Shown here: in pieces, positions 121-49,473 of the stretch
Layout: the number at the start of each line of letters is the position of its first letter
How positions within the stretch are numbered: the stretch's first letter is position 1
DNA from: Bdellovibrionota bacterium
GTDB lineage: Bacteria > Bdellovibrionota_C > UBA2361 > OMIW01
Direction of reading: 5' to 3'
Length of the DNA stretch: 64,000 nucleotides
Assembly: GCA_044235645.1 (NCBI GenBank)
Contig: JBIIHQ010000007.1
Coordinates: 34,628-98,627 of the forward strand
The notes under the pieces: generated by a model
What the model saw: the letters and a program-made list of their open reading frames with translations, nothing else
What the model was told of the DNA's origin: nothing
Database searches by the model: none
Made by a program: the position numbers and the translations under genes

Positions 121-1404
121 ATGGTCGATGATATCCGCGCGCCATTTCCGACTCACTCCGCTCCTGGGACCTCGCGCGACGGGGCTGCCCGAGACAACGG
201 GCGGGGAACCGAACTTACGACGACGGTGCTCGCCCAAGATGGCAAACTCGGGATAGGGATACACTCAAAATTTCTTCCCCTTACCATCTCCCTTGATGCG
301 CGGGCTGGGGATATCGTTCGAGTCCGGATCGAACCTCCCTCGATTGATCACGGGAATAAAGAAACAATAGTGCGGGTCCTGCGGATACTCTCACACCCGA
401 ATCGGGGCCCAGGGCTCGCGACAACAACTCCCCGTACCCTCAGAGATCTTTTTTCCGCTGCCTCGATAAAGCCACTCCAGGAGCTCCTTTTGGCACTCCG
501 AGAGGTGCTCGAACGGAAAGGGCCGATTGATAAGAAAATTTCCCTAAAAACGGGAAACAACGTGGCCGAACCCACCCCTGGACCCGATCCTCGCCTCCCG
601 GGCCTCGCGCCACTCTCCCACTCTCGCACTCACCATATTCCCGCTGCTTACGGAGTTGGAGGCCCCCGACCCGAGGTCGCCCGAATGGTGGCCTCCCGTG
701 AACCCGCGCTCCCCATCGCCACACCGATCCCGCCAACTCCCCCTCAATCTGCCCCTCCAGAAACCTCACTCCGGTCACTCGTCGAAGCAGCGGTTCGCAT
801 GATAGCCGAGCGGGCCGCTGACGGTGGAAAGCAATCTGCCCCCACTCCCCGAACCAAATCATCGGACGACAGCTCCGCCGCGGACGAGGCCACCCGCCGA
901 TTTCAACGACTCGTCACCGAGGCTGGCCCAATCCTCGACCAGTACAACCGCCTCTTTGAATCGCTCAACCAACCGTCATACCTCCTCACCACCCTCGGCA
1001 CCCAAACCCCGATTGTCCCGCTCGAGCTCTCGTTGCTTCGCACCCCCCATCGTCCCGACCGCTCGGGCGAGGGGGTTGAGCACCCGATGGATCGAAGCGA
1101 GATTGCGGGCGATGGAGGCACGGCACATCATCGTGTGTACACCCGCCTCCGAATGACGATCCACTTGCCCACCCTCGGCCCCCTCGGGGTCGATGTGGCA
1201 TATCGGGAGACAGAGGTGCTCCTCAAGATGATCTCCCCTTCGCCACAGGTAGCGGCTTATATGGCCGGGGAGCTACCAGGCCTCGTGGAGCAGTTGAAGG
1301 GGGCGGGATATGGCGGGGTATCGTGGTTTACGGAGGTTGGGGAGGTTGGTGGGGTTATGCCGGAGTGGTTTCGGGAGTTGGTTGAGGAAGGGGTGGTGGC
1401 TTAG
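121..1404 (+). CDS. FliK/SctP-like length-control (ruler) protein with C-terminal Flg_hook/T3S4-like domain
   Basis: 427-aa ORF with a Pro/Ser/Thr-rich low-complexity centre. The C-terminus RLRMTIHLPTLGPLGVDVAYRETEVLLKMISPSPQVAAYMAGELPGLVEQLKGAGY fits the L.P..LG.V.V ... L...L..L...G pattern of FliK/SctP C-terminal domains. By-eye call only. Confidence 0.4.
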   Translation: MVDDIRAPFPTHSAPGTSRDGAARDNGRGTELTTTVLAQDGKLGIGIHSKFLPLTISLDARAGDIVRVRIEPPSIDHGNKETIVRVLRILSHPNRGPGLATTTPRTLRDLFSAASIKPLQELLLALREVLERKGPIDKKISLKTGNNVAEPTPGPDPRLPGLAPLSHSRTHHIPAAYGVGGPRPEVARMVASREPALPIATPIPPTPPQSAPPETSLRSLVEAAVRMIAERAADGGKQSAPTPRTKSSDDSSAADEATRRFQRLVTEAGPILDQYNRLFESLNQPSYLLTTLGTQTPIVPLELSLLRTPHRPDRSGEGVEHPMDRSEIAGDGGTAHHRVYTRLRMTIHLPTLGPLGVDVAYRETEVLLKMISPSPQVAAYMAGELPGLVEQLKGAGYGGVSWFTEVGEVGGVMPEWFRELVEEGVVA

Positions 1405-9057: not shown

Positions 9058-9086
9058 ATATTAGAACACCTCCTCACACTAAGCAA
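9058..9086 (-). promoter_or_regulatory. Sigma70-like promoter of ORF 8774..9034
   Basis: The minus strand reads TTGCTT (9081-9086), a 17-nt spacer, then TAATAT (9058-9063). The ATG at 9034 would give a leader of roughly 17-20 nt. Confidence 0.5.
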
Positions 9087-9128
9087 GTTTTATCTCGTCC
9101 AATCAACAAAATTTCCCGATCCCCTGCT

Positions 9129-9140
9129 ACCTTCGAAGGT
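9129..9140. promoter_or_regulatory. Perfect 12-bp palindrome ACCTTCGAAGGT upstream of promoter 9058-9086
   Basis: Read directly. It lies about 42 bp upstream of the -35 element of the 8774..9034 unit. Confidence 0.3.
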
Positions 9141-9163
9141 CGAATAACTCGCCCTTGCTCTGT

Positions 9164-9195
9164 GAGCGAAGAGGGCTTCACTCCTGTGTTTTTTT
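9164..9195 (+). terminator. Orphan plus-strand intrinsic terminator
   Basis: Stem GAGCGAAG (9164-9171) pairs with CTTCACTC (9176-9183) with one mismatch and loop AGGG. CTGTG and T7 (9189-9195) follow. No plus-strand gene is recognisable upstream. Confidence 0.45.
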
Positions 9196-9520
9196 GATGA
9201 GGATTCACAATCGCAAGAAGGGCGAGCCGACGGCCCCCCGAACCGCAACCCCGATGGCTGCCTCCGCAGAAGATGCGAGGAGATACCTCGACAACGAACG
9301 AGTCGGCTCTCAATGCGCTCGATATCTGGGGGTTGTAGGTGAAAGCACTCAGACAATTCTGCGTCGGGCTTACCTTTTCGATTCTTTATTAGAACGGTCT
9401 CTCTTCGGATGAGACGCCTAGACATTACGAGGGAACGGCAGTTCCGCGGTCCTCTCGACGCGTCGACATTGAGAATCAAAATCAGAACAACCCCTAAAAA
9501 AACATCCGCAAAAACGTCCG

Positions 9521-9551
9521 AAAAAAAAAGGGCACCGTACAAACGGAGCCC
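9521..9551 (-). terminator. Rho-independent terminator of small ORF 9637..9852
   Basis: On the minus strand, GGGCUCCG-UUUGUA-CGGUGCCC forms an 8-bp stem with one mismatch, followed by U9 (complement of A-run 9521-9529). Confidence 0.65.
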
Positions 9552-9636
9552 CTTGTGCAATCAAACCTCTTGTCTTCCCACCTACGCAGCTTCGAGAAGC
9601 CACACAAATCTCGAAGATCAAGAGAGCCTGCGGAAA

Positions 9637-9852
9637 TCACTGCGGGCTCACAGTCCTGCAATTGACCCCCCTGTGCTCACAATCCACCGAGTAGGGTACT
9701 CGGCCATTCGAGTAACCCCCCGCCCGCGAAACGATCACGGGTGAGGTCGAGGGACGCCTCGCTCCGGGATTGTTTCCTGGACCCCCTGCCATTGCAGGAG
9801 AAGTGGTGAAGAGCCCAAGGGCAAAGGCCAGTGCGATGCTGATGCAGTTCAC
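9637..9852 (-). CDS. Small secreted Cys-containing protein (signal peptide, C-terminal Cys-x6-Cys)
   Basis: 71 aa with a GTG start. The signal peptide is MNCISIALAFALGLFTTSPAMA|GG. The mature part is Gly/Pro/Arg/Ser-rich and ends ...VDCEHRGVNCRTVSPQ. It has its own promoter and terminator. Confidence 0.45.
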   Translation of the reverse strand: MNCISIALAFALGLFTTSPAMAGGPGNNPGARRPSTSPVIVSRAGGYSNGRVPYSVDCEHRGVNCRTVSPQ

Positions 9853-9875
9853 GTTGGAATGTCAGAAGACCCCTC

Positions 9876-9905
9876 ATCATAGAACGCCGTACCACTTGAA
9901 GTCAA
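9876..9905 (-). promoter_or_regulatory. Sigma70-like promoter of ORF 9637..9852
   Basis: The minus strand reads TTGACT (9900-9905), an 18-nt spacer, then TATGAT (9876-9881). The -10 context GGCGTTCTATGATGAGGGG resembles that of the 8774..9034 unit (GGTGTTCTAATATGTGGGAG). Confidence 0.5.
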
Positions 9906-9944
9906 GATTTCTGACGAAAAAAGTGCCCTCACCCGTTTTTCTGC

Positions 9945-9959
9945 CGAGAAGCCTTCTCG
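9945..9959. promoter_or_regulatory. Perfect 7-1-7 palindrome CGAGAAG-C-CTTCTCG upstream of promoter 9876-9905
   Basis: Read directly. It lies about 39 bp upstream of the -35 element of the 9637..9852 unit. Confidence 0.3.
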
Positions 9960-10387
9960 CCGAAACCGTCGCCGGAGGGTTCGCCTCAGTGTGGAGGAGA
10001 AGCCCCCTCAGAGGAATCAGTGCGCAAAAAGGGGGGATCGGGACGGTTCATGACGAACCGAAGCGCAGGGTGCCAGGCGGGGATTTTTCTTGGTTGAGGC
10101 TATATCGCTGATCTGCAGCGGCTTTTACCCGGCGGCAACGCGAGGGCGGTTCGAACTCTTTCGATATTCTTTTTTTTGGCTGTAAATTCGGCTCAGCAAA
10201 ACAGCCATGCAGCTGCTGGCACCTTGGACCTCCGACCCGACCCGAGCCCCCCTACCGCCTCCTCTCAGGAGCAGGATTCATACGCCGTATTCACATAGCC
10301 CAAATATCATTTGACGGAGGGGGGGGTGAAGGCTTACCCTCTTCTTATGAGTATTCGACACCCCCCGCCCCCCTCCGAAGGGGCGCC

Positions 10388-12094
10388 ATGGGCGGGTTGA
10401 GGCACGTCTTTCACAGGTCACGGCGAGTAGTCAGGAGGTTCCGCGGTATGGATTCGAAGGTGAAAAAAGATTCCTTGCTAAGGAAACCGTCTTCGCAAAA
10501 AGAGCAGGCGCGACATTCTCGGGGCATGATGTTCCTCGAAGCGGCGATGCTGTTGCCGATGGCAGCGGTGGTCACTGTCGGGTTGGCGTATTATGCCAAT
10601 GCCTATGTCACCAAGACGCGGCTGGGTGATAGCGCTCGGGTGATTGCTCGGGCGATTCAGGACGACCCAGGGATTACTCAGGGGGGGCTTTGGAGCAGTG
10701 CGGGTGACCTCGAGCGCGTAATTTCGGAGGCCACCGGGACTAGCGAGGAAGCACCAGCCGGGTTCAATGTAACGACTTACAAGAAATGCAATCCGGAGCT
10801 CGCAAGCTCCTCAGATGATTCTGCTCGAAGACACTTCGAGACAGCCGGCAGGTTTGAGAAAAGAAGAGGCGTTTTCGGCGACTGCAACGTAGAGTCGAAA
10901 GTCGGTGAAAGAGATGTTCGCGTAAGCATCGCTTCGCATGCGACCCGTCCGTCGAAGAGCCAAATTGAAGGGATTATCCCTCCCGACGGCGCAGACGCAA
11001 ACGGAATTCATCCCAGCGGCAGAGCCCACTCACCCGGTTACACTTTTGGTTGGAAGTACGCGAATCCAAACCCGAATCCTGCCAAGCCGTACTGGGTATC
11101 CGTGGTCACAAAAAAGCCCGTTCCACAGATATCATTGTTTGGCTGGACATTTGGGAGCTCTCCAGCACTTGTGAATCATGCAGTGGTACGGGTTGTGCCA
11201 GATCCAAATAGTATCACCCTCTTTCAGCACTGTACGTTCGGGGACCAGCAACCTGGTTTCGTCGCCACCATCAAGCCAGGCCGCTATGCCTCAATGGCTG
11301 AACTTGGCTCGGGGGAATTGGGGTGGTCCATGGATAATCAATTGTCGTCCCTCCGCATTCCCCCCGGAACGCAAGTAACACTCTACGATGGAGAAAACTT
11401 CACGGGTAATTCAATAACGCTCACGGAAGACGCCGGGTGTCTCAACGCGTCAACCCAGAACTTCAACGACCTCACTTCGTCGTTGGTGGTTGAGCGGACT
11501 CCTGCGAGCGTGAGAGTGGACTATTCCAAGTGCCGAAAAGTTTCGAACCAGGGTGAGGGCCCGATATACGTTTCGAGGATAAACTGCGAACCCGGCGAAT
11601 TCCTTGCAACGCACTCGGCCTATTGCGAGGTTCCCGGTTCAAAGATTTGTGCCGGAACTTCGCGGGGGTTCATGCACACCAACGAAGCAACCCCCACGTC
11701 GGCTACTGTTGACTGCTTCTCTGACAATTGGACCGGCGAAGCGTGTAGCTACGTTGAGGGGCTTTGTTGTCCGACGGGAGGGGAGGTACCGACGAAGGCT
11801 CCAGACCCCCAACCGAAGGCTCCTGACCCCCAACCGAAGGCTCCTGACCCCCAACCGAAGGCTCCAGCCCCCCAACCGTATGAATGCCGGAAACCTGGTG
11901 GGTGGTCAAAGACCTGCCCCATCGCTGGCTATGGAGGCCAGGGGAATTATGGGGATTGTGTCAATGTCGGTCAGGAGAGGACTAGGTATTGTACCGGGGG
12001 GTCGTTGATATCAAATGGCGTTAAGATTGGGGTAAAGTGCTCCACCAGCGGCGGAGCGATTGAGTTTTACGAGCTCGGCACCTGCTATCGCTAA
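10388..12094 (+). CDS. TadE/TadG-type pseudopilin-leader protein fused to beta/gamma-crystallin domain, PKAPDPQ repeat and Cys-rich C-terminal domain
   Basis: The N-terminus ...HSRG|MMFLEAAMLLPMAAVVTVGLAYY has Gly then Glu at +5 and a hydrophobic helix, as in a TadE-like/class III signal. Residues ~276-370 carry two Greek-key-like motifs (ITLFQHCTFGD...NQLSSLRI; VTLYDGENFTGNSITL...NDLTSSLVV). A 4x PKAP(D/A)PQ repeat follows. The C-terminal region has many Cys. Confidence 0.6.
   Translation: MGGLRHVFHRSRRVVRRFRGMDSKVKKDSLLRKPSSQKEQARHSRGMMFLEAAMLLPMAAVVTVGLAYYANAYVTKTRLGDSARVIARAIQDDPGITQGGLWSSAGDLERVISEATGTSEEAPAGFNVTTYKKCNPELASSSDDSARRHFETAGRFEKRRGVFGDCNVESKVGERDVRVSIASHATRPSKSQIEGIIPPDGADANGIHPSGRAHSPGYTFGWKYANPNPNPAKPYWVSVVTKKPVPQISLFGWTFGSSPALVNHAVVRVVPDPNSITLFQHCTFGDQQPGFVATIKPGRYASMAELGSGELGWSMDNQLSSLRIPPGTQVTLYDGENFTGNSITLTEDAGCLNASTQNFNDLTSSLVVERTPASVRVDYSKCRKVSNQGEGPIYVSRINCEPGEFLATHSAYCEVPGSKICAGTSRGFMHTNEATPTSATVDCFSDNWTGEACSYVEGLCCPTGGEVPTKAPDPQPKAPDPQPKAPDPQPKAPAPQPYECRKPGGWSKTCPIAGYGGQGNYGDCVNVGQERTRYCTGGSLISNGVKIGVKCSTSGGAIEFYELGTCYR
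11789..11878 (+). repeat. In-frame 21-bp tandem repeat encoding (PKAPDPQ)n linker
   Basis: Residues 468-497 read PTKAPDPQ-PKAPDPQ-PKAPDPQ-PKAPAPQ-P. The nucleotide units CCGAAGGCTCC(T/A)GACCCCCAA are nearly identical. Confidence 0.9.
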
Positions 12095-32623: not shown

Positions 32624-34378
32624 ATGTGCTGCTCGCTCTTCCCCACGAACTTTTGGCGGTCCCTCATGAAGAACACGTCGACTCGTCTGGTCTCCATGGG
32701 AGACAGGTCATTAAGGTCAAAAGGCTCGTGCATGCACCTCCCTCCTGCCGCTCTCTTCGTAGGGTGGGTTACGACGGCAGTTGTCGGTTGCGTATTTCTC
32801 CTCCCCTCTCTCGCCCTTGGTACCCCCCGCTCCGCGCGAATAATATCCATCAGAACTGAATATGGTGGCTCTGGAACTCTCTCAGCGACCACTATTGCCA
32901 AAGCGAATGTAATACTCCTTCGATTGTGGCTCCCAGGAAACGGGGTAACAACCATAAAACTAAATCGACCAACCTCATTAAGCTCCTCGAACCTGTGGCG
33001 AGGCTACGCCCAATCACCCTCACGAGACGCCGGAAGACAGAGCAGCGCCAGTAGACGGTGGGCAGCAGCATCACTTACGGAGCAAGCCGGGCTTTTGCCG
33101 TCGGCAGAGTATGTCACCCCTTCCCCCGATCTTTCGGTAATTGGAAAGAAGCTAACGCTCAACTTTGCGACCTCCGGGGTACGGGGAGGGACCCGTTTTT
33201 TTTCACTCAGCGGGGGTGAGGGGGCCAAGAAGTTGAAAGTGGTAAGAGCTCCGCATTTTGCTCTCGCCAACAAGGGATGCCCGATGAAGGGGCACCTTGA
33301 GGAACATGCGCGAGAAATATTCGGTGAATTATCAACTTCGTCGCGATCGAGGCCGTCAAGTGCCCTTTCCGCCCGAGCCGTCAATCTGAGCAAGAAACTG
33401 ACCTTAAGAACCGTCGCAGATTGGAGGTGGTCGGCTTTTTACGGTGCGAATGCAAATACCAGAATTCAAACAATCGCAAATGCAGCGTCAGCAATCTACG
33501 GCAATGACCTCGCCATGAGCCTCTCAATCGATTCACAGTTCGTCGACAACTCCTCCCTGTCGTATCCAGCCTCGATAACAAATCCCGAGAGTTTTCTCGA
33601 ACTCTTTAGCAATCAGAATCTCAAGGGTTCTGCCAATGCAGGAGTTCTTTTCACCGATCGAACCTTTGATGATTCGGTTATCGGGATAGCCTACCTTGGG
33701 GTTATTTGTCGTATTCCTTCGGCATCTTATGCGGCAATACGACGATTTCAAGATGCCCTCGATCCGATCATTCTCGCTCATGAGATCGGTCATACACTCT
33801 CCGCAGTCCATGTTTCCGACGGAATCATGACGACATCACTGAATCCCTCAAATCCTCCATCATCCTTTTCTGCATCATCAATCAACGAGATAGCTTCTCA
33901 TGTCCAGACCTATGGTTCATGCATGGCCTCTGTCTCGCCGAATCCGAATCCGACTCCCACGGCGACACCGAACTCGGGTGGCTCGGGGTCAGCTAGTAGT
34001 ACAACCAGAATCCGCTTACTCATAGCCGGTCCCCGGATAGTTCTGCGACCCTCTGTGTCAGACGAATATGGGTCGGGACTCGGCGAGCAATGTACCTTTT
34101 CCATCAAGGCAGGCTTCTCGAGAAGGGGCCTTTTTTCTAAGGGTACAACCCTCTTTTCTTCCACCTTATCGGCCTTGCCATCAGGACTGGTAGCCCGGTT
34201 ATCGCGTCGTTCCGCGACCTCAGGCCCTCTCTACCTGCGGGGTTACATCCAATGTCCGGGAGCGCCCCTCGATACGACCGCGACCATCTGGTTTGACCCG
34301 TCTTCTCTCAACTTTTCGAAAAAGACGAGTCAATCAAATTTCCTTAAGGATCTGAAGCTTCGCCTGAAGAGAGAGTAG
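32624..34378 (+). CDS. Secreted metzincin-like zinc metalloprotease (HExxHxxSxxH)
   Basis: 584 aa with an N-terminal signal/anchor (FVGWVTTAVVGCVFLLPSLALG). The catalytic motif ILAHEIGHTLSAVHVSDGIM follows GIAYLGVICR. A Pro/Thr/Asn linker and an unassigned C-terminal domain follow. Confidence 0.6.
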   Translation: MCCSLFPTNFWRSLMKNTSTRLVSMGDRSLRSKGSCMHLPPAALFVGWVTTAVVGCVFLLPSLALGTPRSARIISIRTEYGGSGTLSATTIAKANVILLRLWLPGNGVTTIKLNRPTSLSSSNLWRGYAQSPSRDAGRQSSASRRWAAASLTEQAGLLPSAEYVTPSPDLSVIGKKLTLNFATSGVRGGTRFFSLSGGEGAKKLKVVRAPHFALANKGCPMKGHLEEHAREIFGELSTSSRSRPSSALSARAVNLSKKLTLRTVADWRWSAFYGANANTRIQTIANAASAIYGNDLAMSLSIDSQFVDNSSLSYPASITNPESFLELFSNQNLKGSANAGVLFTDRTFDDSVIGIAYLGVICRIPSASYAAIRRFQDALDPIILAHEIGHTLSAVHVSDGIMTTSLNPSNPPSSFSASSINEIASHVQTYGSCMASVSPNPNPTPTATPNSGGSGSASSTTRIRLLIAGPRIVLRPSVSDEYGSGLGEQCTFSIKAGFSRRGLFSKGTTLFSSTLSALPSGLVARLSRRSATSGPLYLRGYIQCPGAPLDTTATIWFDPSSLNFSKKTSQSNFLKDLKLRLKRE

Positions 34379-34388: not shown

Positions 34389-34691
34389 CTATTCCGTGAT
34401 GCCCAGCACCCGAAACACGGCAGCCACCGCCCGAAAAAGCTCAGTGGGAATATAATCGCCCAAACCACACTCCAAAAGTCCATCAACAATAGCGCTCTGC
34501 TCAATGACCGGCACCCCGTGGCTCCGTGCGATAGTGACGATCTCATCGGCGCTGAAATAGGCCCCCAGCGCCTCAATCCGTGGAGCATGATCTTCCGCGG
34601 CATCATACCCAATAGCCACGGCACCACGGTAGGAGGGGCCTTTTGAACCACCCGCAAATCCCCCCAATAAACTTTGGTCTGTGGATACCAC
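34389..34691 (-). CDS. sctU: SctU/FlhB C-terminal (normally autocleaved) domain as a separate protein
   Basis: GTG 34691 lies 5 nt after AAGGAGG (34697-34703). The product GPSYRGAVAIGYDAAEDHAPRIEALGAYFSADEIVTIARSHGVPVIEQSAIVDGLLECGLGDYIPTELFRAVAAVFRVL matches the FlhB/YscU C-terminal domain, with GPSY in place of NPTH. Confidence 0.8.
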   Translation of the reverse strand: MVSTDQSLLGGFAGGSKGPSYRGAVAIGYDAAEDHAPRIEALGAYFSADEIVTIARSHGVPVIEQSAIVDGLLECGLGDYIPTELFRAVAAVFRVLGITE

Positions 34692-34705
34692 TTTTACCTC
34701 CTTTA
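34689..34705 (-). promoter_or_regulatory. Stop / Shine-Dalgarno / restart junction of the split sctU (flhB) gene
   Basis: The minus strand reads GTG AGG TAA AGGAGG TAAAA GTG. TAA (34703-34705) ends the N-fragment, AAGGAGG (34697-34703) overlaps it, and GTG (34689-34691) starts the C-fragment in another frame. Confidence 0.7.
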
Positions 34706-35470
34706 CCTCACACAATTGGCGCGAGCCACGATTACTACCGACGATCGCTTCACCGCCCTTACCAAATCTTCTCGAAGCATCGCACGGTGAAGCCCACGCT
34801 GCTGTCCCCGCACCAATGGGTCACCACACTCATCTCTTTGCTCCTGCCGCACCTCTTGCCCGGTCATCATTGTCTGCCATCTAAAACGCCACCACCCAGT
34901 GCTGAAGGAAGCTGCTCCCACCAATGCCAAAAATAATCCGATGCCCACCGACGAGCGGAATAAAAGTGCGTGGACTCCTGTGTCGGACAGAGAGAAAAAT
35001 CCCCTCTGGATAAAATCTCCCGCTATCCACCAAGAAACCAGAAAGCCTAGAGACAATGCGCTGAGCGAACCTATCAGCTGGAGAGGTAAACGACGCAAAC
35101 GACCTATCCACGCGGTCGGCGTCAGTCGAGACATACTCGGGGCAACACGATCGAGTTGCAGGCGGGGACGTTTTATAGCAACCATGAGGAGACATGATAC
35201 TACCGAGCAACCTGCGAAGATCATTCCTATCCCCCCCCAGTCCTCGGTCAATATATTCCGAAGACAGGAATCCAATGCCTGCGCACCTCCACCCCAACAT
35301 TGAGTGGCGATGGAGACGACAGGAGAGCATATCCACCGATGGCTCGACCAACTGAGCACTCCAACCAGCACTACCGAAACGCTCCCAAGGAATTGAGCAG
35401 ACTCGACGGTCGTTCCGTTTTCACGCAGTTTCTTTATATGTCTAGCAGAGCCGGGGAATCTCTTCTCCAT
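34703..35470 (-). CDS. sctU: SctU/FlhB N-terminal transmembrane + linker part (export-apparatus switch protein)
   Basis: 255 aa. The N-terminus MEKRFPGSARHIKKLRENGTTVESAQF matches the EKTE.PT.kkl...r..G pattern. Four TM segments follow. The linker MTGQEVRQEQRDECGDPLVRGQQRGLHRAM fits MS.qE.k.E.Ke.EGdP..K.r.R. The ORF ends ...SSVVIVARANCVR, where NPTH would follow. Confidence 0.8.
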   Translation of the reverse strand: MEKRFPGSARHIKKLRENGTTVESAQFLGSVSVVLVGVLSWSSHRWICSPVVSIATQCWGGGAQALDSCLRNILTEDWGGIGMIFAGCSVVSCLLMVAIKRPRLQLDRVAPSMSRLTPTAWIGRLRRLPLQLIGSLSALSLGFLVSWWIAGDFIQRGFFSLSDTGVHALLFRSSVGIGLFLALVGAASFSTGWWRFRWQTMMTGQEVRQEQRDECGDPLVRGQQRGLHRAMLREDLVRAVKRSSVVIVARANCVR

Positions 35471-35581: not shown

Positions 35582-36259
35582 CTAGAAAAGATAATAGAGA
35601 AGAGAAAAGCTAAGAGCACATTTCATCAGGTGAACTCCTATCGTGATTTCCTGACATAGCGAGAATCGTGATACCAGTCCGCAGATTATCTCGATAGCTA
35701 TGCACCCGAGAAGAAAAGGCATGCTCGTTTTGGCGATCCAAAGACCCGCGTCATACCATGCAGCAGTAACCCTCTCGACCAAGGCGATACGAACGAGCCG
35801 ACTCCCCGGTGGAAGCGTGTTTATCGACTCAGCGAAGGCGACAATGATCCGAGGTAGGGTGCCGAGGAGTACCAAGGTGCCCCAGTTTAATTCGCGAAAA
35901 ACCGCCGACCATATACCCTTCGAGCCATTCGGAGCCATCGGACTGACGATTGAAGCAAAGCTCAGATTCGTCGATAGGTCGACGATCCCGCCCACCAATT
36001 CGGTAGACCAGACCGGAATAAGAAAAGGAATGACGAGCAGGATGCCCACGACACACTCCCTCAGCATCGCCGATATGGGCGAATGGACCCAAACCGACCC
36101 GTTTATGCCGATTGATGCCGGGAGCAGAGATGCGGAATCCCAGACGCAGAGAGCGCTCACAATCCCGAGAACAAAAACGGTGCGCTTTGATAGCCCAGGA
36201 ACCAGAAGCCAGATGGCCCAGCCACGGACAGAGATGGATACAAATGCCACTAGATCCAT
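35582..36259 (-). CDS. sctT: SctT/FliR-family export-apparatus protein
   Basis: 225 aa with SD GAGGAG 5 nt upstream. RGWAIWLLVPGLSKRTV fits the R....i...P.ls.R.v pattern. ECVVGILLVIPFLIPVWSTELVGGIVDLSTNLSFASIVSP parallels FliR ...G...Gl.mGLSFA..vDP. Confidence 0.8.
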   Translation of the reverse strand: MDLVAFVSISVRGWAIWLLVPGLSKRTVFVLGIVSALCVWDSASLLPASIGINGSVWVHSPISAMLRECVVGILLVIPFLIPVWSTELVGGIVDLSTNLSFASIVSPMAPNGSKGIWSAVFRELNWGTLVLLGTLPRIIVAFAESINTLPPGSRLVRIALVERVTAAWYDAGLWIAKTSMPFLLGCIAIEIICGLVSRFSLCQEITIGVHLMKCALSFSLLYYLF

Positions 36260-36292: not shown

Positions 36293-36571
36293 CTATCCCT
36301 GCCGAGCCATGACAGATGCAGACCGAAAGCAAAGGACAGTAAACTGCGTAATACCTCGCCATGCGACGGGCCCACAATAAACAAGACCGATGCCATAAAC
36401 AGCCATACGAATGAGAAATGCTGACATCTGATCCTGAAGCTGTGTAGCTGCCTGAAGAATGGAAACCGACATCGATACAATTGCCGCGAGCAAAAGGGGT
36501 ATCGAGACAATGACAAGGATCCTGCAAATATCATTACCGAAAGATTCAAGAATCATCACGACGTCGTCCAT
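36293..36571 (-). CDS. sctS: SctS/FliQ-family export-apparatus protein
   Basis: ORF 36293..36616 trimmed to ATG 36571, 2 nt after the sctR stop, giving 92 aa. IPLLLAAIVSMSVSILQAATQLQDQMSAFLIRM matches the FliQ/YscS signature (..QA.TQiqEqtl.F.pK). Confidence 0.85.
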   Translation of the reverse strand: MDDVVMILESFGNDICRILVIVSIPLLLAAIVSMSVSILQAATQLQDQMSAFLIRMAVYGIGLVYCGPVAWRGITQFTVLCFRSASVMARQG

Positions 36572-36573
36572 TA

Positions 36574-37290
36574 CTACAGGTAGGAATAAAAGATAGTCCG
36601 ACTGATCAGAATCCATCCGTCACATGCATAAAAGAGCAGCAACTTAATCGGAAGGGCGATACTGATAGGGCTTACCATGGTTAATCCCAATGCTGTGAGG
36701 GTATTTGCAATAATCAGGTCAACCAGGAGAAACGGTATAAGGATCATGACCCCGATAATGATCGCACCCCGGAGTTCTGATACAACAAAAGCAGCAAACA
36801 AGACTCGCAGAGGAATGGGACTCCCTAACGGCGGCTCCTGGACCGCTGATTCCTTTCGGTCGCTTGTGTCTGGCGATGAGCTGTTCGACGTTGAAGACTG
36901 CTCTGTGTGCCTGGTCATGGCAATCTCTCTCATGGCAGAGAGCTCAGCGGTACCAACCTGCCTTGCAAGGAATGCTCGCCACGGCTCGATTGCCGGCTGC
37001 AATGCAGCCAAATCCCGCAGTTGTGGTGCTTTATCAAGGGCGAGAGGTGGCACATTATCTAAATTTTTCGCTGATTGAACGAGTATCGGATGCATGACTA
37101 TCGCAACAAGGGATGCGGATAACGCAAACTCTATCGCCATCGTTCCACCCGAATTAAATCCTAGTCCGCCCTTTAGGAGATTGATGACAACACTCACCTT
37201 GAGATAACAGGTGCAGCATGTTACCAGCAGGGGTAACGCCGCGAGAAACATCATAATACCCAGCAGCCACTGGGGGTGGGTCGTTGTCAC
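36574..37290 (-). CDS. sctR: SctR/FliP-family export-apparatus protein
   Basis: 238 aa. The GTG start overlaps the upstream stop (GTGA) and AAGGAG lies 7 nt upstream. PLRVLFAAFVVSELRGAIIIGVMILIPFLLVDLIIANTLTALGLTMVSPISIALPIKLLLFYACDGW closely parallels the FliP/YscR C-terminal half. The protein starts directly with TM1, with no cleavable signal peptide. Confidence 0.9.
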   Translation of the reverse strand: MTTTHPQWLLGIMMFLAALPLLVTCCTCYLKVSVVINLLKGGLGFNSGGTMAIEFALSASLVAIVMHPILVQSAKNLDNVPPLALDKAPQLRDLAALQPAIEPWRAFLARQVGTAELSAMREIAMTRHTEQSSTSNSSSPDTSDRKESAVQEPPLGSPIPLRVLFAAFVVSELRGAIIIGVMILIPFLLVDLIIANTLTALGLTMVSPISIALPIKLLLFYACDGWILISRTIFYSYL

Positions 37291-38237
37291 GTGTTGCTCC
37301 TTTGCTCTTCACTATCACCCACGACATCAATAGCAACAACCCGAACCTTCTCGCCGATAAGGGCAGCTCGAATCGCTTCCTGGACATCCTGTGATACCGA
37401 TGCCGGGGAACATCTCGGTGCGTTTACCCGAACCGTTACTCCCCGATGCGCTGAATGCTGGATCTCAACGGATCCTGTCGCTTCCGGCAGCGGAGCTGAG
37501 ACGATGATATCCCCCAGATCAAGCACCACCGTGGCGATGGGATTCTCTTTTGGAGGAGTCATGCGTCCCGGTTGCTCACGTATTTTTTTTTGCCCCTCAT
37601 CACCCATCGACTCAGCACCTCGGTGCTCTGAGAGGACTCCCCCCTCTCGCCGAATACAAGCCAATGAGCCGGAGCCATCTTGCCCCATGAGTGACACGGA
37701 TCCAGAAAGAGCAGGGCATTGATCCTTTTGAATTTCACTAAGATCGGATTGCTTGCATCCAATACCTGTTGCTGTCTTGTCTTCCTGACTCTGCCAATCG
37801 GCTAGCTCAACTCCCTCGCGAAGTCGTAAAAAAAAGAGCTGTGCTCTCACCTCCTGATCAACGCCTCGCACCCGAGCTCGCTCTGCTACAGCAAGAAGGA
37901 GCTGCAGCCTCTTTTCCCAACCAGCGATGCGATGTTGCCGGTCGGCCCCGCTCGCAAGCCCCTCATGAGCGGCAACCACCCCATCTCGAATCCGGGCTTG
38001 AAGAGGTTTGCTCATCTCCGTCACAGAAGACGATCCGCCAGCATCACTCCATCTGCACGTCAGAGGGGCAGATAGTTGTTCTGCAGTCGCAAGAATCTCC
38101 CGAAATTCTGCCCGTGCCTGATCGATTCTCCGAGATCGAACCCGAACCTGAGCAATCAGCCTCCCAATGCGCAGATACCGAGCGTGCTGAATTCGTTGAA
38201 CAGTCTTACCTCGAGTCGTTATGTGGCCGATTGCCAT
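37287..38237 (-). CDS. Coiled-coil protein with FliK/SctP (T3S4)-like C-terminus; possible SctO/FliJ-SctP/FliK composite
   Basis: ORF 37287..38312 trimmed to ATG 38237, 7 nt after the upstream stop, with GGGAGG upstream. The N-terminal half is Arg/Ala/Leu/Glu-rich helical. The C-terminus VSAPLPEATGSVEIQHSAHRGVTVRVNAPRCSPASVSQDVQEAIRAALIGEKVRVVAIDVV fits L.PE..G.V.I...V.V...L..AL...v.v. By-eye call only. Confidence 0.35.
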   Translation of the reverse strand: MAIGHITTRGKTVQRIQHARYLRIGRLIAQVRVRSRRIDQARAEFREILATAEQLSAPLTCRWSDAGGSSSVTEMSKPLQARIRDGVVAAHEGLASGADRQHRIAGWEKRLQLLLAVAERARVRGVDQEVRAQLFFLRLREGVELADWQSQEDKTATGIGCKQSDLSEIQKDQCPALSGSVSLMGQDGSGSLACIRREGGVLSEHRGAESMGDEGQKKIREQPGRMTPPKENPIATVVLDLGDIIVSAPLPEATGSVEIQHSAHRGVTVRVNAPRCSPASVSQDVQEAIRAALIGEKVRVVAIDVVGDSEEQRSNT

Positions 38238-38244: not shown

Positions 38245-38553
38245 CTAGCCTCCCTGCTGAAGTCGTCGAACGACCCCCGCGACCGCCTCTCCGGTCTTAG
38301 CGCAAACCTCAACTCTCATGGCATATTCCGAGAATGCCCGCTGAATCGTCAGAAGCTCCCCGATATTCATCGATACTTCCGGTCTCATTTTGTCAGCCGG
38401 GTTTGGTCCTATCTTGAAGAGCTCCCTGATATGACGAAACTCGGCAAAACGAGAAATACCGCCATCAGAATGATTTCTTGATACCCCTTTCAAGGGGAAT
38501 GCTGAGTGTATTAACTTCGGATGCACCTCCATCCGAGATATCTCACCTGTCAT
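38245..38553 (-). CDS. Small SctI/FliE-like (inner-rod/needle-family-like) protein
   Basis: ORF 38245..38616 trimmed to ATG 38553, with GGAGGA (38558-38563) 4 nt upstream, giving 102 aa. The C-terminus ELLTIQRAFSEYAMRVEVCAKTGEAVAGVVRRLQQGG has the amphipathic pattern and ...AKT......V..L..GG ending that I associate with T3SS rod (SctI) / FliE-type proteins. Weak by-eye call. Confidence 0.35.
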   Translation of the reverse strand: MTGEISRMEVHPKLIHSAFPLKGVSRNHSDGGISRFAEFRHIRELFKIGPNPADKMRPEVSMNIGELLTIQRAFSEYAMRVEVCAKTGEAVAGVVRRLQQGG

Positions 38554-47093: not shown

Positions 47094-48620
47094 ATGGGAT
47101 TATTCTCTTTCGCTAACTCCTCACCTAGATTTGAGAAGGAGCCGTCCGTGGCCACTATCTCTTGCCCACCATACGACATTAACGAGGAAATTCTCCCCGA
47201 CCAACTTTTCTCAGCCACTGCTCCGTGCGGAGCCCTCGTAGAAATTCGGGTTGTTAAATTGGCTGCTGGGGGCTCCTCTCATTCAGGTGTCATCATTCAG
47301 CTACAGAGTTGGATCGACTCAATGCGCGAGACATCTCATCCGCACATCTCCCGGCTCATTGATGTCAAACAAGATGAACAAAACATCTTTCTCGTAACAG
47401 AGTCTTGCGAAGGGATCACCCTGCGCGAGTTGATCCAAAATCAACAAGAACTCGTGCATCCCCTCGTTGTTTATTACATGCAACAGGTCGCTTCGGGCTT
47501 GGATTATCTTCACAGTGTCGGTGTCCATCATCGTGATTTTAGCCTGCGGCGGGTCCTTATTGACCCGGGGGGCACTGCAAAAATCGTCGACGTCGGGCTT
47601 CCAGGAATTCTCCCTGAGGTCGTTACGCATGGGGGGCTTGAGGGTACCGAGCGTGGCTACATCTCTCCTGAAGAGCTTCAAGGCCAGGGGCCGAGCGCTC
47701 AGGCCGATCTCTTCCGATTCGCTGTCGCCTGCTTTGAATTAATCACAGGAGTCCTTCCCTTCACAGGAGACACGCCAACAACACTTCAAGCATCAATCCT
47801 CAGCAACTCGCGAACCCTCCCCGCAGTGCGGTCACGTGTCATGCCGGCCCATCTAAAAAAGGCCTTTGAACGCGCCCTCTCTCCCCAACCCGGGAAGCGA
47901 CCAAACTCCGCAGCTCAGTTAGTCAAGGCACTTACCTACACCGAGACATTTGCCACAGGTCGGGGCCTTGCCGACCTGATGTCTCACAACGCTCCCCCCG
48001 AAGCGCGAAAAAAGGCCAAGGCTCCCCAGTGGCTCGTCGCTGGTGGTCTTGGACTGCTGGTGGGTGTAACGCTCATCGCCGGGACGATTGGTCGCTCTTC
48101 CCCATCAATGATAGAGTCGAGTGCCGACAACCCGGCGCTCCCAGAAGTGGCGCTAGAAACCTCTCCCTTTTCGCCGGTAAGAGATCGTCAAACACCAGCA
48201 AAAAAAATCCTCAAACTTCTTCCAATAGCGCAAAAAGGCACCGGAGGTGAGCAGTCTCTCGTACCAGTCCTTCAATACTTGTTCTCAGAAACAGCTTCCA
48301 CACCAACCACTTCGGAGGAACAACAGCTTCTCAAGGCTCTTCTGGCTCACGACAACCCCAACATCCGACGCACCGTTGTGCAGATTATCGAGAGACGTGG
48401 GATAAAAGAGCTTACGGATCAGTTATTTCCCCTCCTCGATGATGATGATCCAGGCATCCGAAGCGTCGTCGTTCGAGCCCTTCGGTCAACTTTTGCACCT
48501 GTTTCAGTTAAACTTCTCGCTCTCAAGGCTGCCTCGGAATCGGTTCCTGCAATTCACGCCGATATTCTCGCGCTCGCCGAAGGCTACGCAGCGGAATTGG
48601 AGATGCAGAAGGGACAATGA
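47094..48620 (+). CDS. Ser/Thr protein-kinase-like protein with degenerate catalytic motifs, TM segment and HEAT-like repeats
   Basis: The kinase fold is recognisable (HPHISRLIDV, LDYLHSVGVHHRDFSLRRVLID, KIVDVGL, YISPEE, ADLFRFAV). A TM helix (WLVAGGLGLLVGVTLIAG) follows. The C-terminal repeats include DNPNIRRTVVQ and DDDPGIRSVVVRAL. Confidence 0.65.
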   Translation: MGLFSFANSSPRFEKEPSVATISCPPYDINEEILPDQLFSATAPCGALVEIRVVKLAAGGSSHSGVIIQLQSWIDSMRETSHPHISRLIDVKQDEQNIFLVTESCEGITLRELIQNQQELVHPLVVYYMQQVASGLDYLHSVGVHHRDFSLRRVLIDPGGTAKIVDVGLPGILPEVVTHGGLEGTERGYISPEELQGQGPSAQADLFRFAVACFELITGVLPFTGDTPTTLQASILSNSRTLPAVRSRVMPAHLKKAFERALSPQPGKRPNSAAQLVKALTYTETFATGRGLADLMSHNAPPEARKKAKAPQWLVAGGLGLLVGVTLIAGTIGRSSPSMIESSADNPALPEVALETSPFSPVRDRQTPAKKILKLLPIAQKGTGGEQSLVPVLQYLFSETASTPTTSEEQQLLKALLAHDNPNIRRTVVQIIERRGIKELTDQLFPLLDDDDPGIRSVVVRALRSTFAPVSVKLLALKAASESVPAIHADILALAEGYAAELEMQKGQ

Positions 48621-48630
48621 CAGTAGACCT

Positions 48631-49473
48631 ATGACCCGTCCACCTCGTCAAAGGAGATTTTCCACCGCGAGCCGCCGGGAGACTTCTCTCTCCAATCAAA
48701 GCGAAACGCTCCACCCTATCCGCTCGCTATTTTTTACCCTTGGCATCCAGATTGTTGCGAGAACTCTCCTGGGCAGTCTTGATAACCACACACTCGTGAC
48801 GGTCACTCATTTCGCTTTTGCACTGAGTCTCTCTCGACTCCTGTCGCTCTCTCGTCCATGGCAGCTGTGCAATATCCTTATTCCTGTAGGATTAAATCTC
48901 CAAACTGGCTCCCTTCTTCCTTTCATCGGATTCCTTATCAGCCTTATGATCTTCTGGCCGACCCTTCGCGAGCCGATACCTTTCTATCCTTCCCGACGAG
49001 CTGTCTTTCAACACCTTGCCACCATACTAAGTGCGGAGCGACCCCGAGATTTTGCGGATCTTGGCTCAGGAACCGGTTCCGTGCTCTTTGCTCTTGCACG
49101 GAGATTTCCTGAGATATCTTTTGTTGGATACGAGATCGGATATTTGCCACTCCTTCTCTCCCGGATTCGTTCGTTGTGGTACCCTCATGTGACTATTATT
49201 AACCGCTCCATCTGGGACATACATCTCGGGACGCATTCGTGTGTTTATGCATTCTTATCTCCTACCCCCATGGCTCGCCTTGAAGAAAAGCTTGCCGAGG
49301 AGCTTCCGAAAGGTTGTATATTCTTAAGTAACTCCTTTCCACTTCCCCTCACAGAGGCACGCACATTCATCGAAATTGGGGGACAATCGCTTTTCGTCTA
49401 TCGTTCTGATGACATTGGAGTGAAAAGCCAAAAGAGCTCCTGGTATGGGTTGTCATCTGCTTCGCGGATGTAG
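48631..49473 (+). CDS. Class I SAM-dependent methyltransferase with N-terminal membrane segments
   Basis: ORF 48439..49473 trimmed to ATG 48631, 11 nt after the kinase stop. The SAM motif I is FADLGSGTGSVLFALA, followed by VGYEI. Confidence 0.65.
   Translation: MTRPPRQRRFSTASRRETSLSNQSETLHPIRSLFFTLGIQIVARTLLGSLDNHTLVTVTHFAFALSLSRLLSLSRPWQLCNILIPVGLNLQTGSLLPFIGFLISLMIFWPTLREPIPFYPSRRAVFQHLATILSAERPRDFADLGSGTGSVLFALARRFPEISFVGYEIGYLPLLLSRIRSLWYPHVTIINRSIWDIHLGTHSCVYAFLSPTPMARLEEKLAEELPKGCIFLSNSFPLPLTEARTFIEIGGQSLFVYRSDDIGVKSQKSSWYGLSSASRM

What the first reader, a model, noticed from the sequence alone, without database searches (positions are those of the whole stretch)
34389..35470. SctU/FlhB is genetically split at the NPTH autocleavage position
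Seen: ORF 34703..35470 covers the N-terminal TM and linker part of FlhB/SctU. It stops (TAA 34703-34705) right after ...KRSSVVIV-ARANCVR, where canonical proteins continue with NPTH. The next ORF, in a different frame, carries the C-terminal domain (...GPSYRGAVAIGYD...GVPVIEQSAIVDGLL...IPTELFRAVAAVF). The minus-strand junction reads GTG AGG TAA AGGAGG TAAAA GTG. A consensus Shine-Dalgarno (34697-34703) overlaps the stop and sits 5 nt before an in-frame GTG (34689-34691). NPTH is replaced by GPSY. About 30 codons of non-homologous sequence separate the two homologous blocks, so this is not a single-base frameshift. Established: NPTH autocleavage of FlhB/SctU underlies the substrate-specificity switch made together with the FliK/SctP ruler. 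Inference: autoproteolysis has been replaced by two separately translated polypeptides, a hard-wired 'cleaved' state. I do not know of this arrangement being described.
Basis: partly seen in the sequence, partly recalled or inferred. Interest (0 to 1): 0.75.

Follow-up and report, generated by a model that had tools for sequence, protein, structure and literature searches.

The report
Naturally two-gene type III switch protein
The type III secretion "switch" protein SctU/FlhB, which normally cuts itself in two at an NPTH loop, is here encoded as two separate genes that break at that cut site, and a whole clade of uncultured (Bdellovibrionota-like) bacteria shares this split, so it is a natural version of the cleaved state.

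Summary
On the minus strand, 34703..35470 encodes the four-helix membrane part, linker and first beta-strand of SctU/FlhB (Pfam profile 2-256). 34389..34691 (GTG start, AGGAGG 5 nt upstream) encodes the rest of the cytoplasmic domain (profile 262-334). NPTH is absent.

It is not an error or a pseudogene:
- The identical protein occurs on 14 independent contigs.
- Relatives at 82, 43 and 40% identity keep stop, Shine-Dalgarno and start, but with different frame offsets (2, 1, 0, 2).
- dN/dS is 0.25 and 0.16, like sctR and sctT.

A search of 1.8 billion representative proteins found at least 71 clusters of N-halves that end at the cleavage position. In a neighbour-joining tree, all 84 split forms separate from all 73 full-length forms. 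In the larger subclade a sensor-kinase gene lies between the halves.

A model of the joined cytoplasmic parts (pLDDT 88.8) matches YscU/EscU/FlhB structures, with the strand from the N-half completing the fold.

Context (sctI-like, possible ruler, sctRST) leans towards a non-flagellar system.

I found no description of a natural split in the searchable literature. The closest known cases are FlhX-type stand-alone domains and laboratory co-expression of fragments.

Verdict: a new variant of a known kind. Whether it arose by fission in place or by recruiting a paralogue is unresolved.

The parts
34703..35470 (-). sctU-N. It encodes 255 aa: four hydrophobic helices (24-40, 83-99, 130-146, 168-184), the cytoplasmic linker and the CN segment up to beta-strand 1 (SSVVIV), then a 6-residue tail and TAA.
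   Evidence: Pfam Bac_export_2 profile 2-256 of 335, E 2.4e-25. PDB match to the EscU CN chain 3bzl_A, residues 6-52 of 54, and to FlhB in export-gate structures. Hydropathy. Homologues of 253-258 aa.
34689..34705 (-). Junction: stop TAA (34703-34705), Shine-Dalgarno AGGAGG (34697-34702), 5-nt spacer, start GTG (34689-34691).
   Evidence: Read directly from the sequence. Relatives have the same layout with TAG/ATG, TAG/ATG or overlapping TAATG, and frame offsets of 1, 0 and 2.
34389..34691 (-). sctU-C. It encodes 100 aa: an 18-19-residue leader followed by the CC part of the cytoplasmic domain, with no NPTH.
   Evidence: Pfam profile 262-334, E 1e-13. NCBIfam best hit TIGR00789 at 65.5 bits. 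PDB match of residues 24-93 to FlhB chain B (3b0z) residues 5-75. Independent pipelines call a gene here (100 aa in several, 108 aa in one).
35582..36259 (-). sctT / fliR homologue
   Evidence: Pfam Bac_export_1, E 1.6e-11.
36293..36616 (-). sctS / fliQ homologue. The start is uncertain; relatives are 86-93 aa.
   Evidence: Pfam Bac_export_3, E 9.7e-13. Gene calls in relatives.
36574..37290 (-). sctR / fliP homologue, with an internal insertion of about 30-45 residues.
   Evidence: Pfam FliP, E 3.8e-41, with 220 residues aligned on 189 profile positions. Alignment A6.
37287..38237 (-). A conserved 316-aa protein: N-terminal coiled coil, variable middle, conserved C-terminal ~80 residues. It may be a ruler (SctP/FliK-like); this is tentative.
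   Evidence: It sits upstream of sctR in 14 loci. Five of 14 members hit Pfam Flg_hook, best E 1.1e-4, but the window's own copy does not. hhalign and PDB profile searches were negative.
38245..38553 (-). A 102-aa SctI-like (inner-rod-like) protein with a conserved C-terminal motif ELLxxQ..EY.LRVEL.SK...
   Evidence: Seven of 12 family members hit TIGR02497 and 3 of 12 hit NF038054 T3SS_SctI (best E 1.2e-4). No unrelated family was hit. The family profile matches MxiI (8axk_M) at E 0.029. The window's own copy is weak: E 0.12-0.14.

Best explanation
This is a genuine, selectively maintained two-gene form of the type III secretion switch protein SctU/FlhB.

The upstream gene makes the membrane-embedded part that wraps the SctRST export gate, plus the cytoplasmic linker and the first beta-strand of the cytoplasmic domain. 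The downstream gene makes the remainder of that domain, which corresponds to the 'CC' fragment released by autocleavage in canonical proteins. It is translated from its own GTG behind a consensus Shine-Dalgarno that abuts the upstream stop, so the two are probably translationally coupled.

The two polypeptides are inferred to associate by strand complementation, as the two fragments of autocleaved YscU, EscU and FlhB do. This would give an SctU that is 'cleaved' from birth. The self-cleaving NPTH chemistry has become dispensable and has been lost.

The gene pair belongs to a deep clade of sctI-like / ruler-like / sctR-S-T-U clusters in uncultured Bdellovibrionota-like bacteria, and every member of that clade is split.

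Shown here:
- the two ORFs and their boundaries;
- conservation across relatives and assemblies;
- purifying selection on both halves;
- loss of NPTH;
- a single grouping of the split forms in the tree;
- compatibility with the known fold.

Inferred: separate translation, heterodimer formation, and function as the switch or docking subunit.
For: Boundaries:
- The N-half covers Pfam profile 2-256 and the C-half covers 262-334.
- On a full-length HMM with NPTH at 266-269, every split locus ends at 265 and resumes at about 271.
- The two ORFs map one-to-one onto the two chains deposited for cleaved EscU and FlhB crystals.

Not an artefact:
- The identical N-half is on 14 contigs from ENA, Logan, JGI and NCBI samples, each followed by the C-half gene.
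- Homologues at 82, 43 and 40% identity are 255, 253 and 258 aa. Each is followed by a 96-100-aa Bac_export_2 gene.
- Stop and start codons and frame offsets differ among them: TAA/GTG +2, TAG/ATG +1, TAG/ATG in frame, TAATG +2.

Selection (window versus L001): dN/dS is 0.25 for the N-half and 0.16 for the C-half, against 0.16 for sctR and 0.22 for sctT.

Breadth:
- Of the best 150 of 2809 hits among 1.84 billion representatives, 71 are proteins of 242-273 aa that end just after the ...KVIVVE... strand and have no NPTH.
- Among the GTDB species genomes retrieved, the split loci are Bdellovibrionota, 'Bdellovibrionales', Deltaproteobacteria, Dadabacteria and Pseudomonadota MAGs. The Myxococcota, Pseudomonas, Rhodothermales, Halomonas and other loci checked are nearly all full-length, and the few exceptions run off a contig end or show only a weak partial match.
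- In a neighbour-joining tree, one bipartition separates all 84 split from all 73 full-length N-domains.

Fold: an AlphaFold2 model of N(196-255)+C(1-100), built with 25 homologue rows, has pLDDT 88.8 and pTM 0.75. The N-half strand (50-55) and the C-half strand (81-88) are both confidently modelled as strands of the domain, and the junction loop has low confidence. Foldseek top hits are YscU, EscU, CT091 and FlhB cytoplasmic domains, with target TM-score mostly 0.7-0.86.

Context: the pair lies directly downstream of sctR, sctS and sctT. The GC content matches the surrounding DNA.
Against: - There is no protein-level evidence that either product is made or that the two bind each other.
- The structural model was computed as one chain, with an alignment of full-length homologues, so it leans towards the canonical fold. 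The single-sequence model was poor (pLDDT 50.6).
- In 3 of about 16 distinct split loci examined (L012, L098, L099), no C-half lies within the DNA held. The N-half may therefore not always need an adjacent partner.
- All split C-halves score better on the stand-alone family model TIGR00789 than on the SctU or FlhB models, unlike CC domains cut from full-length proteins. The C-half may therefore not descend from the same gene as the N-half.
- Only 64 kb of this genome is visible, so a second, full-length sctU or flhB elsewhere cannot be excluded.
Confidence: 0.82

Rival explanations
1. The origin differs from the reader's account, though the present-day mechanism is the same. The N-gene lost its CC domain, and a stand-alone FlhB-C paralogue (the FlhX / YlqH / TIGR00789 type) was recruited as the trans-acting CC subunit. 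This is not a fission in place.
For: Six of 6 split C-halves, the window's included, score best on TIGR00789 flhB_rel (52-66 bits). CC domains excised from 5 full-length SctU or FlhB proteins score best on their own full-length models (83-120 bits). In the larger subclade the halves are about 3 kb apart, with a kinase gene between them. From my own knowledge, H. pylori FlhX can substitute for a deleted FlhB-CC.
Against: All scores are far below the TIGR00789 cut-off of 117. Part of the score difference is simply the missing PTH residues, which the full-length models reward. The adjacent arrangement exists in a sister subclade of 8 clusters, so adjacency may be ancestral. The C-half is too short (about 75 alignable residues) for the tree I could build to decide.
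Confidence: 0.3
2. Assembly or sequencing error, or a recently broken pseudogene.
For: A stop followed by a frame change inside a normally single gene is the usual signature of an indel.
Against: The same protein is found on 14 independent contigs. Relatives down to 40% identity, and a clade of at least 71 clusters, are truncated at the same place. dN/dS is 0.16-0.25 on both halves. A start codon and Shine-Dalgarno are conserved. About 25 non-homologous codons replace the NPTH loop.
Confidence: 0.02
3. Programmed frameshifting or stop-codon read-through produces a single full-length polypeptide from the two ORFs.
For: In the window the C-half frame is open for 43 codons upstream of the GTG and overlaps the end of the N-half. 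In L004 the two ORFs are in the same frame, separated by one TAG.
Against: The frame offset is 2, 1, 0 and 2 in four relatives, so no single recoding event is conserved. In L001 the C-half frame opens only 5 codons before its ATG. I saw no slippery heptamer on reading the junction. In most of the clade a gene of about 1000 codons separates the halves.
Confidence: 0.02
4. The N-half works alone as the gate subunit. The C-half is a dispensable or purely regulatory accessory, not an integral half of SctU.
For: Three split loci have no C-half within reach. In Salmonella, flhB lacking the CC domain still supports late-substrate secretion (PMC13344023).
Against: The C-half is under the strongest purifying selection of the four genes compared (dN/dS 0.16). 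It is tightly coupled to the N-half in the window's subclade. The N-half keeps beta-strand 1, which has no evident role without the rest of the sheet. In Salmonella, loss of the CC domain abolishes early-substrate export.
Confidence: 0.12

Closest known systems
Canonical autocleaving FlhB / SctU (YscU, EscU, SpaS, Spa40, HrcU, CdsU)
   Same: The domain order is the same: four membrane helices, a linker, then an alpha/beta cytoplasmic domain. The position after sctR-S-T is the same. The end state is the same: two chains held together, broken between strand 1 and strand 2.
   Different: Here there are two genes instead of one. The NPTH loop and its catalytic Asn are absent (Ala in the N-half; PSYR at the N-P-T-H positions of the C-half). 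The break carries extra residues: a 6-aa tail and an 18-19-aa leader.
Stand-alone FlhB C-domain homologues (NCBIfam TIGR00789 flhB_rel; H. pylori FlhX/HP1575, B. subtilis YlqH, Bordetella Bcr4). The names are from my own knowledge.
   Same: Each is a separately encoded protein of about 90-100 aa, homologous to the CC fragment and lacking NPTH. TIGR00789 is the window C-half's best NCBIfam hit.
   Different: To my knowledge, those proteins coexist with a complete, self-cleaving FlhB or SctU and act as spare parts or chaperone-like factors. Here the partner gene is itself truncated at the cleavage site, so the small protein would be the only CC domain. Scores are below the family cut-off (65.5 against 117.35).
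Laboratory split FlhB (co-production of the FlhB fragment lacking CC together with FlhB-CC in Salmonella; Minamino and Macnab 2000, Fraser et al. 2003, from my own knowledge; and flhB deleted for the CC domain, PMC13344023)
   Same: This work shows that the CC fragment is a separable module. It is the docking site for early substrates and a lock that the ruler's C-terminal domain ejects at the switch.
   Different: Those are engineered constructs in a flagellar system. Here the separation is natural, ancient and fixed in a whole clade.
Myxococcus 'needle-less' T3SS* and other non-flagellar T3SS of Myxococcota
   Same: Myxococcota SctU are among the nearest full-length relatives of the N-half, along with Pseudomonas and Mixta T3SS SctU, and Myxococcota are prominent among the nearest full-length-type SctR loci. 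Both belong to predatory or delta-proteobacterial-type lineages (PMC12428579).
   Different: The Myxococcota SctU proteins examined whole are full-length with NPTH. The rest of the apparatus in the window's organism is unknown.
Other naturally split T3SS genes (rhizobial-type split secretin rhcC1/rhcC2; HrcQA/HrcQB)
   Same: They are a precedent for a T3SS component encoded as two polypeptides in some lineages (PMC3574062).
   Different: They concern different components, and none of them is split at a self-cleavage site.

Membership tests
FlhB/SctU family (Pfam PF01312 Bac_export_2) | N-terminal domain with four transmembrane helices, homologous to FlhB-TM | tested here: met
   Pfam profile 2-256, E 2.4e-25. 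Four hydrophobic segments. Match to FlhB chains in export-gate structures 6s3l_K and 8z5s_x.
FlhB/SctU family (Pfam PF01312 Bac_export_2) | Cytoplasmic alpha/beta domain with the YscU/EscU/FlhB-C fold | tested here: met
   Sequence matches to 3b0z_B, 3t7y_A, 3b1s_B and 3bzl_A. AF2 model with pLDDT 88.8. Foldseek target TM-score mostly 0.7-0.86 to YscU, EscU, CT091 and FlhB domains. Caveat: the model was computed as one chain with an alignment of full-length homologues.
FlhB/SctU family (Pfam PF01312 Bac_export_2) | Conserved NPTH autocleavage loop with a catalytic Asn | tested here: not met
   No NP[TES]H motif in either ORF, nor in any of the split N-halves screened by motif (71 proteins), nor in the C-half N-termini read. 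Ala249 sits at the Asn position and PSYR at the N-P-T-H positions.
FlhB/SctU family (Pfam PF01312 Bac_export_2) | Encoded as one polypeptide | tested here: not met
   Stop, Shine-Dalgarno and start lie between the halves. This is conserved in relatives with different frame offsets. In the sister subclade a gene lies between the halves.
FlhB/SctU family (Pfam PF01312 Bac_export_2) | Encoded next to sctR-sctS-sctT (fliPQR) | tested here: met
   Pfam hits to FliP, Bac_export_3 and Bac_export_1 immediately upstream. Same order in all relatives.
Stand-alone FlhB-like proteins (NCBIfam TIGR00789 flhB_rel; FlhX type) | Score at or above the curated cut-off of the family model | tested here: not met
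   65.5 bits against a cut-off of 117.35 for the window's C-half. Other split C-halves score 52-66 bits. It is nonetheless the best-scoring model for all of them.
Stand-alone FlhB-like proteins (NCBIfam TIGR00789 flhB_rel; FlhX type) | Coexists with a complete, self-cleaving FlhB or SctU in the same genome | not testable with these tools
   Only 64 kb of the genome is available. Within it, the only other Bac_export_2 gene is the truncated N-half.
Non-flagellar T3SS (injectisome type), as opposed to the flagellar export apparatus | Presence of injectisome-specific parts (SctI inner rod, SctP ruler, SctD, SctC, SctF) | tested here: inconclusive
   The SctI-like family upstream has only weak hits, but all are to SctI models. 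The ruler-like protein is tentative. The FHA protein of the sister subclade is tail-anchored and is not SctD. No SctC, D, F, J, N, V, Q or L in the window.
Non-flagellar T3SS (injectisome type), as opposed to the flagellar export apparatus | Core proteins group with Sct proteins, not Fli/Flh proteins | tested here: inconclusive
   NCBIfam scores are nearly equal: SctU 58.4 against FlhB 55.3, SctS 39.4 against FliQ 34.0, SctT 33.4 against FliR 34.9, SctR 118 against FliP 117. The neighbour-joining tree places the split clade next to Pseudomonas, Mixta and Myxococcota SctU, but on a stem of 0.011 and without support values.

The most novel reading that the evidence does not exclude
Encoding the CC subunit separately makes the substrate-specificity switch resettable or open to outside control.

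In the 2026 Salmonella model, the cleaved CC domain is a lock and an early-substrate dock. The ruler ejects it once, irreversibly, because each FlhB brings exactly one copy.

A separately encoded CC protein could be re-supplied, withheld or titrated. In the larger sister subclade its gene overlaps the end of a GAF/PAS sensor histidine kinase gene and is followed by a membrane-anchored FHA protein. The apparatus could then toggle between early and late export modes in response to a signal such as prey contact, instead of switching once per machine.
Probability: 0.15. Interest if true: 0.85.

Novelty: new variant of a known kind. Interest (0 to 1): 0.62.

Why it matters
Why FlhB/SctU must cut itself is a long-running question in type III secretion. 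One view is that the chemistry or timing of cleavage matters. The other is that only the existence of two chains matters.

A large, old clade has replaced self-cleavage with two genes and discarded NPTH. This is a natural experiment favouring the second view: a nick at this exact position, not the autoproteolytic reaction, is what the machine needs.

It also fits the recent proposal that the CC fragment is a removable lock ejected by the ruler (PMC13344023), and gives material to test it. Here the 'lock' is its own gene, and in the sister subclade it is linked to a sensor kinase.

On the practical side, annotation pipelines label these halves 'FlhB' without comment. T3SS detection tools that expect a protein of about 350 aa may score such systems as incomplete.

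The clade also points to an uncharacterised, probably non-flagellar T3SS in Bdellovibrionota-like bacteria.

Tried and rejected
- The search for related loci with the broad alignments A3 and A5 failed, because no stretch was conserved enough. I used a single protein and an SctR alignment instead.
- The word-indexed protein search found only 4 relatives of the N-half and 3 of the C-half. The exhaustive HMMER search was needed to see the clade.
- Single-sequence AlphaFold2 of the joined cytoplasmic parts was uninformative, with pLDDT 50.6.
- Rfam and tRNA scans of the window found nothing, so there is no taxonomic anchor. The only close genome is labelled 'Proteobacteria bacterium AM_0729', and the organism's phylum remains unproven.
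- I tested whether the 316-aa protein upstream of sctR is a FliK/SctP ruler. The window's own copy has no Pfam hit. hhalign against the window's FliK-like protein was negative. The PDB profile search returned only coiled-coil matches. Only 5 of 14 family members give weak Flg_hook hits. I kept this as tentative.
- I considered that the FHA protein after the C-half in the sister subclade might be SctD and rejected it. It has a single C-terminal membrane anchor and no periplasmic domain, and its best hits are generic FHA models.
- I considered that the FliK-like gene at 121..1404 marks a flagellar locus. Its neighbours are not flagellar.
- I considered recent horizontal acquisition of the cluster. 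The GC content matches the flanks.
- The 2012 paper on 'split' T3SS genes concerns the secretin and HrcQ, not HrcU.
Full report
**1. The observation**

ORF 34703..35470 encodes 255 aa and ends ...KRSSVVIVARANCVR-TAA. The stop abuts AGGAGG (34697-34702). Five bases later a GTG (34689-34691) opens a 100-codon ORF in another frame that runs to 34389.

Pfam places the first ORF on positions 2-256 of the 335-position FlhB/YscU model (E 2.4e-25). It places the second on positions 262-334 (E 1e-13). On a full-length HMM that I built from 52 homologues, NPTH occupies positions 266-269. The N-half ends at 265 and the C-half resumes at 271.

The two ORFs correspond one-to-one to the two chains deposited for cleaved crystals:
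- N-half residues 201-247 match EscU chain A (3bzl_A, positions 6-52 of 54).
- C-half residues 24-93 match FlhB chain B (3b0z_B, positions 5-75).

The point stands: the autocleavage motif is gone. Four hydrophobic segments in the N-half fit the four helices of FlhB-TM.

**2. Is it real?**

Four lines of evidence say yes.

- *Independent assemblies.* The identical 255-aa protein is recorded on 14 contigs from independent ENA, Logan and JGI/NCBI samples. In each place shown it is followed by a separately called Bac_export_2 gene of 100 aa (108 aa in one pipeline's call).
- *Conserved truncation.* The homologues found by the word-indexed search are 255, 253 and 258 aa at 82, 43 and 40% identity. 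Their contigs show the same synteny, with a 96-100-aa C-half gene directly after.
- *Varying junctions.* Each junction has a stop, a purine-rich Shine-Dalgarno and a start, but the details differ:

| Locus | Stop / start | Spacer | Frame offset |
|---|---|---|---|
| window | TAA / GTG | 11 nt | 2 |
| L001 | TAG / ATG | 10 nt | 1 |
| L004 | TAG / ATG | 12 nt | 0 (in frame) |
| L006 | overlapping TAATG | none | 2 |

  L001 has ATG exactly where the window has GTG, which fixes the start. Offsets that vary like this exclude both a shared indel artefact and a conserved recoding signal.
- *Selection.* Nei-Gojobori dN/dS between the window and L001 is 0.25 for the N-half and 0.16 for the C-half. The neighbouring sctR and sctT give 0.16 and 0.22. 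Both halves are under ordinary purifying selection.

**3. How widespread?**

I ran an exhaustive HMMER search with a profile of the four N-halves against 1.84 billion representative proteins. It gave 2809 hits at E <= 0.001.

Of the best 150, 71 are proteins of 242-273 aa that end a few residues after the ...[RK]xxKV[IV][IV]VE... strand and contain no NPTH. Most of the others are ~350-aa proteins with NPTH at about residue 265. The short proteins are only 30-45% identical to one another, so this is an old and diverse group.

Context was retrieved for several of them:
- P0015 has the window's synteny, with an adjacent, overlapping C-half.
- P0011 and P0008 have the order sctR-S-T, N-half, a 906-930-aa GAF/PAS histidine-kinase-like gene, a 90-92-aa C-half, then an FHA-domain protein.
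- P0007 has no C-half nearby.

Scans of one genome per GTDB species gave these results:
- The split loci are MAGs labelled Bdellovibrionota, Bdellovibrionales, Deltaproteobacteria, Candidatus Dadabacteria or Pseudomonadota.
- The Myxococcota, Pseudomonas, Rhodothermales, Eremiobacterota, Halomonas and other loci checked are nearly all full-length. The few exceptions run off a contig end or show only a weak partial match.

I built a neighbour-joining tree of 84 split N-halves and 73 full-length N-domains. A single bipartition separates the two sets.

The split side has two subclades. One has 8 clusters with adjacent halves: the window's group plus P0015/L011. The other has 76 clusters, and every one of the 13 loci in it whose gene order could be examined has the kinase gene after the N-half.

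This is a distance tree without support values, built on a sample chosen by similarity to the query. I read it as consistent with one origin, not as proof.

**4. Do the halves make one domain?**

AlphaFold2 on N(196-255) joined to C(1-100) without an alignment was poor (pLDDT 50.6). With 25 rows of full-length homologues it gave pLDDT 88.8 and pTM 0.75. In that model the linker is a helix. The N-half strand SSVVIV (50-55) and the C-half strand (81-88) are both confidently modelled as strands of the domain. The 25-residue junction has low confidence.

Foldseek against the PDB returns YscU, EscU, Chlamydia CT091 and FlhB cytoplasmic domains, with target TM-scores mostly 0.7-0.86.

The model is biased by construction: it was computed as a single chain with a canonical alignment. 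It shows compatibility, not assembly.

From established structures of cleaved EscU, SpaS, YscU and FlhB, strand 1 stays in the sheet after cleavage (my own knowledge; cited as refs 14-16 in PMC7064499). I therefore infer that the two gene products associate in the same way.

**5. What system is it?**

Upstream of sctR lie two conserved genes.

- *The ~100-aa protein (window 38245..38553).* It has a conserved C-terminal motif. Seven of 12 family members hit the SctI inner-rod domain model and 3 hit NF038054 (best E 1.2e-4), with no competing family. The family profile finds Shigella MxiI in the PDB at E 0.029. These hits are weak but consistent.
- *The ~316-aa protein (37287..38237).* It has a coiled-coil N-terminus, a variable middle and a conserved C-terminal ~80 residues. 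Five of 14 members give weak FliK C-domain hits, but the window's copy does not, and other tests were negative. 'Ruler' is only a lead.

NCBIfam scores do not separate Sct from Fli/Flh. The neighbour-joining tree puts the split clade next to Pseudomonas, Mixta and Myxococcota SctU, on a very short stem.

One sister-subclade contig also carries a clearly flagellar flhA (406 against 230 bits), an flhG-like gene and fliA 6 kb away. That organism is therefore flagellated, and the split cluster may be a second system.

The window itself holds no other T3SS part. The exception is an isolated 427-aa protein with a FliK C-domain (121..1404, E 4e-7), whose neighbours are not flagellar.

I conclude that the cluster leans non-flagellar. 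This is not established.

**6. Mechanism and rivals**

The best-supported account is a two-gene SctU whose products reconstitute the 'cleaved' protein. Translation is probably coupled in the window's subclade.

- Artefact, pseudogene and recoding are effectively excluded (sections 2 and 3).
- The origin is open. All six split C-halves tested score best on the stand-alone family model TIGR00789 (52-66 bits, below its cut-off of 117). CC domains cut from five full-length proteins score best on the SctU or FlhB models. Part of that difference is the lost PTH residues, but recruitment of an FlhX-type paralogue cannot be dismissed.
- A further possibility is that the C-half is a dissociable regulator and not a fixed half. 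In Salmonella, the cleaved CC domain is both the dock for early substrates and a lock that the ruler ejects at the switch, and flhB lacking it is stuck in late mode (PMC13344023). A separately encoded CC, linked to a sensor kinase in the sister subclade, invites the idea of a regulated or resettable switch. This is speculation.

**7. Novelty**

Nine full-text searches found no report of a naturally split FlhB or SctU. The only 'split T3SS gene' paper found concerns the secretin and HrcQ. The library omits most subscription journals, so absence is not proof.

Three related things are known:
- autocleavage at NPTH;
- stand-alone CC homologues such as FlhX;
- complementation by co-expressed fragments (the last two from my own knowledge).

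I therefore rate this a new variant of a known kind. It is of real interest to T3SS specialists, because it bears directly on why cleavage exists.

Noticed in passing
L013:10818-13538, L014:10796-13588, L057:6844-10038 and the equivalent genes in L095, L097, L101, L103, L104, L108: In the larger sister subclade, a GAF/PAS histidine-kinase-like gene of 880-1080 aa sits between sctU-N and sctU-C. In at least L014, L103 and L108 its end overlaps the start of the C-half gene. A ~300-370-aa FHA-domain protein with a single C-terminal membrane anchor usually follows. This suggests signalling control of the C-half.
   Followed up: partly
window 32624-34378 (+): A 584-aa reprolysin-like (M12B) zinc metallopeptidase with a hydrophobic N-terminal region is encoded convergently, ending 10 nt from the end of sctU-C. 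The same neighbour is kept in relatives at 82% and 43% identity. It could be a secreted protease linked to the system, or the conserved position could be mere synteny.
   Followed up: no
window 121-1404 (+): An isolated 427-aa protein carries a FliK C-terminal (Flg_hook / T3S4) domain, E 4e-7, just above the Pfam cut-off. Its neighbours are an NfeD-type protease and acetyl-CoA synthetase, not flagellar genes. It could be the ruler that acts on the split SctU.
   Followed up: partly
window 7254-10388: About 3.1 kb has no ORF longer than 156 aa, in an otherwise gene-dense window. There is no Rfam hit, no tRNA and no notable repeats. This is unexplained.
   Followed up: partly
window 36574-37290 (-), about residues 105-160 of SctR: SctR carries an insertion of about 30-45 residues rich in Ser, Thr and Glu, relative to the FliP model. 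The insertion is variable across the clade.
   Followed up: no
L012:3790-4569; L098:8687-9463; L099:6190-6966: Three split loci have the truncated N-half but no recognisable C-half within the DNA held. In L099 the kinase gene is followed directly by alanine racemase. The C-half may be elsewhere in those genomes, or lost.
   Followed up: partly
L013:1-3165: One sister-subclade contig has a clearly flagellar flhA, an flhG-like gene and fliA about 6 kb upstream of the split sct cluster. At least that organism is flagellated and may have two type III systems.
   Followed up: partly
window 47094-48620 (+) and 48439-49473 (+): A Ser/Thr protein kinase with HEAT repeats is followed by an overlapping 344-aa ORF with no Pfam hit.
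   Followed up: no
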